64,000 nucleotides of DNA from a phage: the sequence record PZ386966.1, one strand, 5' to 3'. The notes under the pieces were generated by a model, which saw nothing but the letters and a program-made list of their open reading frames with translations, made no database searches and was not told the origin of the DNA. Of the stretch, positions 59,672 to 59,815 are shown in pieces. Made by a program: the position numbers and the translations under genes. Position 1 is the first letter of the stretch. Each line of letters opens with the position of its first letter.

Positions 59672-59815
59672 AATTATCTTTGTAGATAAGTTATTAAGCT
59701 TACCTGTGAGTATGCGACCACAAAGGGTGAAAGGGTAAATTCTAGATTTAAACCCAAAAAGGCACATCGCTACAGACCTTAAGCAAGTCTGGGTAGCTTA
59801 TCTACAAAGATAATT
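59672..59815. repeat. 19-bp perfect inverted repeat (AATTATCTTTGTAGATAAG / CTTATCTACAAAGATAATT) flanking ~106 bp
   Basis: Arms 59672-59690 and 59797-59815. Confidence 0.7.

What the first reader, a model, noticed from the sequence alone, without database searches (positions are those of the whole stretch)
59672..59815. 19-bp perfect inverted repeat enclosing 106 bp inside the tRNA array
AATTATCTTTGTAGATAAG (59672-59690) and its exact reverse complement (59797-59815) flank 106 bp, immediately upstream of tRNA-Lys. In RNA this is a long perfect duplex, a likely RNase III substrate; at the DNA level it resembles a miniature inverted-repeat element or cruciform.
Basis: seen in the sequence. Interest (0 to 1): 0.5.

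Follow-up and report, generated by a model that had tools for sequence, protein, structure and literature searches.

The report
Conserved RNA hairpin in phage tRNA operon
The inverted repeat is real: it closes a conserved, folded, non-coding RNA of about 144 bases that sits in the tRNA gene cluster of Felix O1-like phages, is not a mobile element, and has no known function.

Summary
The 19-bp perfect inverted repeat (59672-59690 / 59797-59815) is confirmed and is far beyond chance. The window is a Felix O1-like phage (Felixounavirus), and the repeat lies in the tRNA-Asp to tRNA-Lys spacer of its + strand tRNA array.

All 49 relatives whose flanks I recovered carry it, across Felixounavirus, Mooglevirus and Suspvirus. 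It always forms a 22-24 bp helix (P1). The helix is kept by compensatory changes and by G.U pairs that work only in + strand RNA. The perfect 19-bp DNA repeat occurs in only one of two alleles.

P1 closes a four-helix RNA domain (P1-P4) that matches no Rfam family. It ends 4 nt before tRNA-Lys +1. It directly follows a circularly permuted tRNA mimic (order V-T-acceptor-D, as in bacterial YrlA Y RNAs).

The mobile-element (MITE), cruciform, terminator and coding readings all fail their tests. RNase III cleavage is compatible but untested.

Best reading: P1 is the clamp and processing stalk of a stable non-tRNA RNA. RNase P would release it at tRNA-Lys, leaving a 3' end shielded from exonucleases, much like the T4 species 1 and 2 RNAs. 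This is a new RNA family of a known kind, with unknown function. Interest is moderate.

The parts
59672..59695 (+). P1 5' strand.
   Evidence: pairing and covariation
59792..59815 (+). P1 3' strand. 59797-59815 is the perfect 19-mer complement.
59700..59730 (+). P2, the variable hairpin of the type A allele. Predicted by minimum-free-energy folding only. It cannot be aligned with type B, which has a UCGUC/GAUGA helix here.
59733..59755 (+). P3 hairpin (GGGUAAAU-UCUAG-AUUUAAACCC). The loop UCUAG(A) is invariant in both alleles, while the stem sequence is entirely different between them.
59773..59791 (+). P4 hairpin (CAGAC-CUUAAGCAA-GUCUG). It is a miniature of the repeated GACC..UUACAGCAA..GGUCUG module.
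   Evidence: (109/125 GC<->AU)
59816..59819 (+). 4-nt single-stranded leader UAAU between P1 and tRNA-Lys +1. RNase P cleavage here is inferred, and would create the 3' end of the hairpin RNA.
59820..59895 (+). tRNA-Lys(UUU), the downstream neighbour.
59539..59671 (+). Upstream neighbour: a circularly permuted tRNA-like module. Parts: closing stem 59543-59549/59662-59668; UUACAGCAA 59550-59558; V arm 59574-59590; T arm 59595-59611; acceptor-like hairpin 59612-59618/59623-59629; D arm 59632-59646.
   Evidence: (partial tRNA hit, 24.7 bits)

Best explanation
The inverted repeat is the closing helix (P1, 24 bp in this phage) of a ~144-nt structured, non-coding RNA domain with helices P1-P4. The domain is transcribed on the + strand as part of the phage's polycistronic tRNA precursor.

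Shown:
- The helix and two inner hairpins (P3, P4) are conserved by base pairing, not by sequence, across three genera.
- The pairing works only for + strand RNA.
- The interior exists as two alleles that keep the same architecture.

Inferred:
- The helix ends 4 nt before tRNA-Lys +1, so RNase P cleavage of tRNA-Lys should leave an RNA ending in a 24-bp helix plus a 4-nt tail. The host 3' exonucleases cannot readily attack such an end.
- On the 5' side the domain abuts a tRNA mimic whose 7-bp acceptor-like stem is a likely second RNase P site at 59622/59623. That would give a stable RNA of about 197 nt (59623-59819). Without that cut the product is longer.
- P1 therefore acts as the structural clamp and processing stalk of a stable non-tRNA RNA, analogous to T4 species 1 and 2 RNAs. 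The variable interior (P2) and the invariant loops (UCUAG, CUUAAGCAA) would be the parts that contact a partner, which is unknown.
- RNase III may additionally cut within P1.
For: - Phage identity and conservation: 250-252 phage records match, almost all Felixounavirus, Mooglevirus or Suspvirus.
- All 49 recovered loci carry the element, in 25 distinct sequences.
- P1 is 98.3% paired over 24 pairs. Four pairs change on both sides, with a U.G intermediate at pair 4/148. Slid controls give 29-45% paired and no compensatory changes. The covariation score is 0.205 against 0.113 for shuffles (0 of 500 reach it).
- Type B consensus fold: 48 pairs, 99.5% paired, 5 pairs with double changes, 3 of them in the outer helix of P3.
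- G.U pairs keep the helix at 23-24 bp while the Watson-Crick-only run falls to 10-16 bp in type B.
- A covariance model built only from type B finds the window's type A element at 49.6 bits, E = 1e-11, and aligns P1, P3 and P4.
- Every tRNA is on the + strand. There is no + strand terminator-like site between the promoter-like sites at 58120/58211 and the element.
- Three long spacers end in long hairpins 1-4 nt before a tRNA +1, and share the 3' arm AAAGAU plus a UUAAU leader.
- The adjacent tRNA mimic has an acceptor-like helix that is 99% paired, with 3 of 7 pairs compensated.
- M. smegmatis YrlA, which has a 7-bp acceptor stem, is cut by RNase P (PMC4201824).
Against: - There is no transcript data, so the ends, the stability and any cleavage are all inferred.
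- Independent compensatory events are few, because most double changes in P1 track the single type A / type B split.
- Type A sequences are 97-100% identical to each other, so P2 of the window allele rests on energy minimisation alone.
- A pure end-protection role would not explain why the interior loops are invariant, nor why the interior was replaced wholesale between alleles.
- The element was not detected in Kolesnikvirus (phiEa21-4), so it is not universal in the subfamily.
Confidence: 0.55

Rival explanations
1. P1 exists mainly as an RNase III site. Host RNase III would cut both strands of the helix, separating the upstream spacer RNA from tRNA-Lys and releasing the ~100-nt interior. 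This is how rRNA and B. subtilis scRNA are excised from flanking stems.
For: The helix is a continuous 22-24 bp, A/U-rich dsRNA in all 25 variants, which meets the roughly two-turn length that E. coli RNase III needs (my own knowledge). The perfect 19 bp in type A is unusually regular. There is precedent for RNase III excising a stable RNA from a flanking stem in B. subtilis scRNA (PMC1935012, abstract). From my own knowledge, RNase III also acts on the T4 tRNA precursor and on species 1 RNA.
Against: No cleavage data exist. The sister hairpins in the same position before tRNA-Arg (about 16 bp) and tRNA-Leu (85% complementary) are poorer RNase III substrates. Mooglevirus and Suspvirus tolerate a mismatch at pair 5. 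RNase P alone is enough to free tRNA-Lys. Antideterminant positions were not evaluated.
Confidence: 0.25
2. The hairpin domain and the adjacent permuted tRNA mimic together form a phage Y-RNA-like scaffold or decoy. It would bind a host tRNA- or RNA-surveillance factor (Rsr/Ro60-PNPase, RNase P, RtcR/RtcB, an anticodon nuclease) to protect phage tRNAs or redirect RNA decay.
For: The V-T-AS-D order, the closed acceptor stem, the invariant T and D arms and the G18G19/T-loop elements match the YrlA architecture (PMC4201824; bioRxiv 10.1101/312249). Y RNAs pair a long stem with a tRNA-like effector module. Salmonella, a host of these phages, encodes Rsr, YrlA and YrlB (PMC4201824). The allelic replacement of the interior while flanks stay 97-99% identical is what a specificity-determining surface would show.
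Against: The GNCGAAN0-1G Ro-binding motif is absent from the window. It appears only as GCCGAAG in the Sf17-type interior. No Rfam Y RNA or YrlA hit appears even at E <= 10. No TROVE gene was seen in the 50 kb of annotated relative that I read. Most E. coli hosts lack Rsr (my own knowledge).
Confidence: 0.12
3. It is a DNA-level feature: a miniature inverted-repeat transposable element, or a cruciform-forming site such as an origin or a protein-binding palindrome.
For: The terminal inverted repeat is perfect over 19 bp and encloses about 100 bp in this genome. The tRNA region is rich in homing-endonuclease genes.
Against: It is a single copy in the window, with one place per phage record in nearly all listed rows. 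It has no hit in 5,426 E. coli genomes. The flanks CTGGT / TAATG show no target-site duplication. It is present in 49 of 49 loci. In type B the Watson-Crick-only run is 10-16 bp, and the helix is completed by G.U pairs, which are A.C mismatches on the other strand.
Confidence: 0.03
4. The region codes for protein. The 85-aa minus-strand ORF 59510-59767 is annotated as a hypothetical protein in several GenBank records.
For: The ORF is present in the window and in type A relatives.
Against: In type B Felixounavirus, Suspvirus and Mooglevirus it is truncated or frame-shifted to unrelated 41-49 aa ORFs. It reads antisense through a tRNA T arm (EGIEPSP). Indels of 1, 2 and 4 nt are tolerated in the alignment.
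Confidence: 0.02

Closest known systems
T4 species 1 (rnaC) and species 2 (rnaD) stable RNAs in the T4 tRNA cluster
   Same: These are non-tRNA, 119-139-nt structured RNAs encoded within a phage tRNA operon on the tRNA strand, directly next to a tRNA gene. rnaC folds with long hairpins plus a T arm. Their function is still unknown. From my own knowledge they are processed out of the tRNA precursor, and species 1 is an RNase III substrate in vitro.
   Different: There is no significant sequence similarity: local alignment scores of 17-22 against shuffle means of 16-17 and maxima of 24-26. The covariance model does not hit the T4 region. In T4 the T arm is inside rnaC, whereas here the tRNA-like part is a separate, permuted module upstream of the hairpin domain.
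RNase III processing stalks that bracket stable RNAs (16S/23S rRNA stems; B. subtilis scRNA precursor, PMC1935012)
   Same: A long helix formed by sequences flanking a structured RNA inside a longer precursor, long enough for RNase III.
   Different: Cleavage is not demonstrated here. The helix is only 4 nt from an RNase P site, which already provides an end. The sister hairpins are shorter.
YrlA-type bacterial Y RNAs (PMC4201824; bioRxiv 10.1101/312249)
   Same: This applies to the adjacent module 59539-59671. It is a circularly permuted tRNA mimic in the order V arm, T arm, loop-closed acceptor stem, D arm, closed by a terminal stem. Like M. smegmatis YrlA, which RNase P cuts, it has a 7-bp acceptor stem.
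   Different: The window has no GNCGAAN0-1G motif and no neighbouring Ro60/TROVE gene was seen. The terminal stem is only 7 bp. The long helix (P1) lies beside the tRNA-like domain rather than enclosing it. The V arm looks like a decayed anticodon arm of tRNA-Thr(GGU).
Miniature inverted-repeat transposable elements
   Same: Terminal inverted repeats around a short non-coding core.
   Different: It is single-copy, has no target-site duplication, is fixed at one orthologous site in three genera, and its arms evolve like an RNA helix.

Membership tests
MITE | Terminal inverted repeats | tested here: met
   19-bp perfect arms
MITE | Multiple copies in the genome or in host genomes | tested here: not met
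   Only the two arms match in 64 kb with up to 3 mismatches. There is one place per phage record in nearly all listed rows. There is no match in 5,426 E. coli genomes.
MITE | Target-site duplication flanking the repeats | tested here: not met
   The flanks are ...CTGGT and TAATG..., with no direct repeat.
MITE | Presence/absence polymorphism among related genomes | tested here: not met
   49 of 49 loci that have the flanks also have the element. The variation seen is allelic replacement of the interior, not loss.
E. coli RNase III substrate | About two turns (>= ~20 bp) of coaxial dsRNA | tested here: met
   24 bp in the window and 22-23 bp in type B, counting G.U pairs
E. coli RNase III substrate | Absence of antideterminant base pairs in the proximal and distal boxes relative to the cleavage site | not tested
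   The cleavage register is unknown, so no rule set was applied.
E. coli RNase III substrate | rnc-dependent cleavage in vivo or in vitro | not testable with these tools
   No transcript or biochemical data are available.
Any Rfam 15 family | Covariance-model match to 59620-59815 or its type B homologues | tested here: not met
   No hit over the element at E <= 1, at E <= 10 on 446 nt, or at E <= 5 on four relatives.
Intrinsic terminator | G+C-rich stem followed by a U run | tested here: not met
   No + strand terminator-like site at the element. The stem is A/U-rich and is followed by UAAUGG.
YrlA / bacterial Y RNA (adjacent module, possibly acting together with P1) | tRNA-like domain in the order V - T arm - loop-closed acceptor stem - D arm | tested here: met
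   The un-permuted sequence is called tRNA-Thr(GGU) by ARAGORN.
YrlA / bacterial Y RNA (adjacent module, possibly acting together with P1) | GNCGAAN0-1G Ro60-binding motif near the 5' end | tested here: not met
   By reading the sequences and alignments, not by a pattern search: the motif is absent from 59535-59815 in the window. GCCGAAG occurs only inside the Sf17-type element, and GCCGAUG in the other type B sequences.
YrlA / bacterial Y RNA (adjacent module, possibly acting together with P1) | Encoded within about 4 kb of a Ro60/TROVE gene | tested here: inconclusive
   None is annotated in the first 50 kb of phage bumzen, which includes the array. The rest of that genome and the window's ORFs were not scanned.
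Permuted tRNA gene (Cyanidioschyzon type) | 3' half upstream of 5' half, with the two restoring a cloverleaf when rejoined | tested here: met
Permuted tRNA gene (Cyanidioschyzon type) | Conserved functional 7-nt anticodon loop with U33 | tested here: not met
   The window has C33. Five of 16 variants have a 6-nt loop, and L022 has a different triplet.
T4 rnaC / rnaD | Sequence or model-level homology | tested here: not met

The most novel reading that the evidence does not exclude
Felix O1-like phages carry, inside their tRNA operon, a composite RNA made of a circularly permuted tRNA mimic (YrlA-like) joined to a long-stemmed, allele-variable hairpin domain. This composite would be a phage-encoded Y-RNA-like ribonucleoprotein scaffold or decoy. 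It would engage a host tRNA/RNA-surveillance or anti-phage factor (Rsr-PNPase, RNase P, RtcR/RtcB, or a tRNA-cleaving defence nuclease). The repeated GACC-UUACAGCAA-GGUCUG modules would be further binding sites for the same partner.
Probability: 0.12. Interest if true: 0.8.

Novelty: new member of a known kind. Interest (0 to 1): 0.5.

Why it matters
Felix O1-like phages are classic Salmonella typing phages and are widely used in biocontrol. Yet the long spacers of their tRNA arrays are annotated as empty, as pseudo-tRNAs, or as spurious small ORFs.

This work shows that at least one spacer holds a conserved, covarying RNA fold next to a permuted tRNA mimic. That corrects the annotation of about 250 genomes. 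It also adds a family to the small set of non-tRNA stable RNAs found in phage tRNA operons; the T4 examples have lacked a function for about 50 years.

It also offers a tractable system. There are two natural alleles with identical flanks, and a predicted RNase P / RNase III processing scheme. With these one can ask what such RNAs do and whether they interact with host tRNA-directed defences.

Tried and rejected
- Rfam at permissive thresholds, on the window and on four relatives: nothing over the element.
- Homology to T4 rnaC/rnaD: both align best to the P1 5' arm (AAUUAUCUUUGC), but the scores are within the shuffle range.
- Covariance-model search of Kolesnikvirus phiEa21-4 and of the T4 tRNA region: no hit. 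The phiEa21-4 Asp-Ser spacer does not fold better than shuffles (z = -0.85).
- K-turn or box C/D reading of the GCCGAUGA...UGA internal loop in type B: the register conflicts with the covarying AUUUCCU/AGGAAAU helix. Rejected by inspection.
- Ro60-binding motif GNCGAAG: present only in the Sf17-type interior, so not conserved.
- An apparent ~400-bp insertion in phage S19cd (a two-piece BLAST hit): it is collinear, and the second piece was a repeat match.
- The GACC-UUACAGCAA module outside Ounavirinae: the 11 IMG/VR hits are chance, because none has the complementary partner.
- A phage RNA-repair context: an ORF at 37031-37726 resembles phiEa21-4 'polynucleotide kinase' by tblastn (34% identity), but it has no Pfam hit. 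Its neighbours are uninformative apart from a Macro domain at 39756-40541.
- Literature searches for Felix O1 small RNAs, phage permuted tRNAs and Felixounavirus transcriptomes found nothing relevant in the held library. The T4 genome review could not be read.

Full report
**Observation.** The 19-mer AATTATCTTTGTAGATAAG lies at 59672-59690. Its exact reverse complement lies at 59797-59815, 106 nt further on and 4 nt before tRNA-Lys(UUU), which starts at 59820. These two arms are the only matches in the 64-kb window, even with three mismatches allowed (expected 0.06). No other inverted 19-mer within 300 nt exists in the window, and Markov shuffles give 0.01 inverted 16-mers per window. Folded as RNA, the helix extends to 24 bp through G.U pairs. 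The 158-nt region folds at -49.6 kcal/mol, with z = -5.1 against dinucleotide shuffles.

**Context.** The window is a Felix O1-like myovirus. The Asp-to-Lys spacer matches 250-252 phage records at 70-100% identity. Nearly all are Escherichia, Salmonella, Shigella or Citrobacter phages of the genera Felixounavirus, Mooglevirus and Suspvirus. The window has 24 ARAGORN tRNAs plus one more found only by Rfam, and all are on the + strand between 58267 and 63556. Promoter-like sites lie at 58120 and 58211, upstream of the first tRNA. No + strand terminator-like site lies between them and the element. Co-transcription with the tRNAs is therefore the natural inference, but it is not shown.

**Conservation and two alleles.** I recovered 49 copies (25 distinct) from GenBank phages, IMG/VR and metagenomes. 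Every locus that has the flanking sequence also has the element, so there are no empty sites. The interior comes in two forms.
- Type A is the window's form and is found in most Felixounavirus.
- Type B is found in some Felixounavirus (Seyj1-1, bumzen) and in all Suspvirus and Mooglevirus.

Between the window and Seyj1-1 or bumzen, the 250 nt upstream and the downstream tRNA-Lys are 97-99% identical, but the element interior is only 62-68% identical. The variation is therefore an allelic replacement of the interior, not presence versus absence.

**It is an RNA helix.** On the 25-sequence alignment, the 24 pairs of P1 are 98.3% paired.
- Four pairs change on both sides: 4/148 UA<->CG with a U.G intermediate, 12/140 CG<->UA, 19/133 CG<->GC, and 24/128 GC<->UG.
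- Several pairs toggle between A-U and G.U.
- Sliding the 3' partner by 1-3 columns gives 29-45% pairing and no compensatory changes.
- The covariation score of 0.205 exceeds all 500 column shuffles.

One caveat: three of the four double changes track the single A/B split, so the number of independent events is small. Type B keeps a 23-bp helix, but only 10-16 consecutive Watson-Crick pairs. The rest are G.U pairs, which would be A.C mismatches in the complementary strand. That fits selection on + strand RNA. It argues against a DNA cruciform or an antisense transcript.

**Interior.** RNAalifold on the 13 type B sequences gives P1, a short P2 (UCGUC/GAUGA), a two-part P3 and P4. These total 48 pairs, 99.5% paired, with 5 pairs showing double changes. 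Three of those are in the 7-bp outer helix of P3 and one is in P4. Type A folds into the same layout. Its P3 stem has a completely different sequence but the same UCUAG loop. Its P4 is CAGAC-CUUAAGCAA-GUCUG, against CAGACC-CUUUAGCAA-GGUCUG in type B. A covariance model built only from type B detects the window's type A copy at 49.6 bits (E about 1e-11) and aligns P1, P3 and P4. P2 of type A rests on energy minimisation alone.

**What it is not.**
- No Rfam 15 family matches the element in either allele, even at E <= 10.
- The 85-aa minus-strand ORF that some records annotate here is broken in type B and in the other genera, and it reads antisense through a T arm.
- There is no terminator signature.
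- As a MITE it fails on copy number, on target-site duplication and on polymorphism. It is also absent from 5,426 E. coli genomes.

**Neighbours that bear on function.** Immediately upstream (59539-59671) lies a circularly permuted tRNA-like module. In order, it has:
- an anticodon-arm-like hairpin (V), 59574-59590;
- a perfect T arm, 59595-59611;
- a 7-bp acceptor-like helix closed by the loop AGAU, 59612-59629;
- U8-G9;
- a D arm with G18G19, 59632-59646.

The whole is closed by a 7-bp stem (59543-59549 with 59662-59668). Over 16 distinct sequences the acceptor-like helix is 99% paired, with 3 of 7 pairs compensated. The Michonne type has an entirely different 7-bp sequence plus an encoded GCCA. 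The T and D arms are invariant. Rejoined in silico, ARAGORN calls it tRNA-Thr(GGU). However, the anticodon-like loop is degenerate in Felixounavirus (C33, or a 6-nt loop), so decoding is not conserved. This order (V, T, closed acceptor stem, D) is the architecture of YrlA-type bacterial Y RNAs, which are described as circularly permuted tRNA mimics. M. smegmatis YrlA, which has a 7-bp acceptor stem, is cut by RNase P (PMC4201824; bioRxiv 10.1101/312249). The Ro60-binding motif GNCGAAN0-1G is not present in the window.

P1 is also one of three long hairpins that end long spacers 1-4 nt before a tRNA +1. They share the 3' arm AAAGAU and a UUAAU leader. They lie at 59672-59815 (before tRNA-Lys), 60262-60296 (before tRNA-Arg) and 60871-60960 (before tRNA-Leu).

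**Mechanism (inferred).** RNase P cleavage at tRNA-Lys +1 would leave the upstream RNA ending in a 24-bp helix with a 4-nt tail. That end is poorly accessible to RNase II, PNPase and RNase R; this rests on established knowledge of those enzymes and was not tested here. A second RNase P cut at the acceptor-like stem (59622/59623) would give a 197-nt RNA made of the D-arm half of the mimic plus the hairpin domain. Without that cut, a longer RNA would include the whole mimic. On this reading P1 is the clamp and processing stalk of a stable non-tRNA RNA. The invariant loops and the allele-specific P2 would be its functional surface. RNase III cleavage within P1 is compatible with the helix length, but it is not required and not shown. 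The shorter or imperfect sister hairpins argue that RNase III is not the function the three hairpins share.

**Comparison with the known.** The nearest functional analogues are the T4 species 1 and 2 RNAs (rnaC, rnaD). These are annotated stable RNAs of unknown function at the end of the T4 tRNA cluster. rnaC folds with long hairpins and a T arm. No homology is detectable by alignment or by the covariance model. RNase III stalks around rRNA and B. subtilis scRNA are mechanistic analogues (PMC1935012). YrlA is the closest match for the adjacent module. I found no description of this element, or of a phage permuted tRNA mimic, in the held literature.

**Verdict.** This is a real, conserved, covarying RNA structure. 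It is a new RNA family of a known general kind, with unknown function. The RNase III reading remains a testable hypothesis. The MITE and cruciform readings are rejected.

Noticed in passing
window 59539-59671: A circularly permuted tRNA mimic in the order V arm, T arm, loop-closed 7-bp acceptor stem, D arm. Rejoined in silico it is called tRNA-Thr(GGU). It is YrlA-like but lacks the Ro60 motif. Michonne-type relatives encode GCCA after the acceptor 3' strand. One GenBank record (ASO1B) lists a 'tRNA-Thr' under the BLAST match to 59600-59830; I did not inspect its coordinates.
   Followed up: yes
window 58801-58873, 58968-59031, 59450-59525, 59539-59670 (and P4 at 59773-59791): A repeated RNA module, 5'-CAGA AGACCNN UUACAGCAA ... 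NNGGUCU GG, in which the NN positions covary between copies (AA/UU or GU/AC). It is specific to Ounavirinae. The best, sub-threshold Rfam match is Dictyostelium Class I RNA (RF01414, 15-27 bits against a gathering score of 41.5), which has the same layout of stem, CUUACAGCAA, stem, UG. This is probably convergence or chance, and it is unexplained.
   Followed up: partly
window 60262-60296 and 60871-60960: Two further long hairpins (about 16 and about 24 bp) end 4 and 1 nt before tRNA-Arg and tRNA-Leu. Their arms (AUCUUU.../...AAAGAU) and UUAAU leader are similar to those of P1, so they look like paralogues of the finding.
   Followed up: partly
window 59995-60300; L004 1067-1309; L005 1076-1382: Sub-threshold but recurrent hits to tmRNA_permuted, alpha_tmRNA and tmRNA (15-30 bits against gathering scores of 47-50) across the tRNA-Ile to tRNA-Arg spacer in several genera. 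A strong promoter-like site (TTGACA-17-TATAGT) lies at 60069-60097. The cause may be only the tRNA-Ile T arm and CCA.
   Followed up: no
window 58719-58790: Rfam finds a 55-bit tRNA that ARAGORN did not list. Its anticodon loop CUUCAAU gives the anticodon UCA, which would read UGA, so it looks like an opal suppressor.
   Followed up: no
window 58361-58717: An ORF between tRNA-Pro and the UCA tRNA carries CxxC...HH...CANCH motifs typical of HNH homing endonucleases. This was read from the sequence and not scanned against Pfam.
   Followed up: no
window 60602-60615 with 60704-60717: The leader and trailer of tRNA-Ser(UGA) are 14 nt and 93% complementary, which would extend the acceptor stem into a long leader-trailer helix.
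   Followed up: no
window 59363-59388: A 26-nt segment right after tRNA-Asp (ATTATAATAAGTATTTCAAAATGATG, containing TATAAT) is present in some relatives and precisely absent in others. AYO145A annotates a promoter here.
   Followed up: no
window 59389-59449: About 60 nt that are nearly invariant across three genera. It holds two hairpins (GAGAGGGCU-AUUU-AGCCCCUC and CCUUAAAGA...UCUUUAAAGG). It is more conserved than the tRNA mimic, and its function is unknown.
   Followed up: no
window 60522-60596: A weak tRNA-like hit (23 bits to the tRNA-Sec model) just before tRNA-Ser. It is possibly another decayed tRNA or a tRNA mimic.
   Followed up: no
window 37031-37726 and 39756-40541: An ORF that is 34% identical (tblastn, E = 7e-22) to phiEa21-4 gp7, which is annotated as polynucleotide kinase, but it has no Pfam hit. 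Nearby is a Macro-domain ORF (Pfam E = 1e-7).
   Followed up: partly
L090 (T4) 4909-5172 compared with window 59669-59687: T4 rnaC and rnaD both align best to the P1 5' arm (AAAUAUCUUUGCCGUA and UAAUAAUCUUUGC against UAAUUAUCUUUGCAGUA of type B). This is not significant against shuffles.
   Followed up: yes
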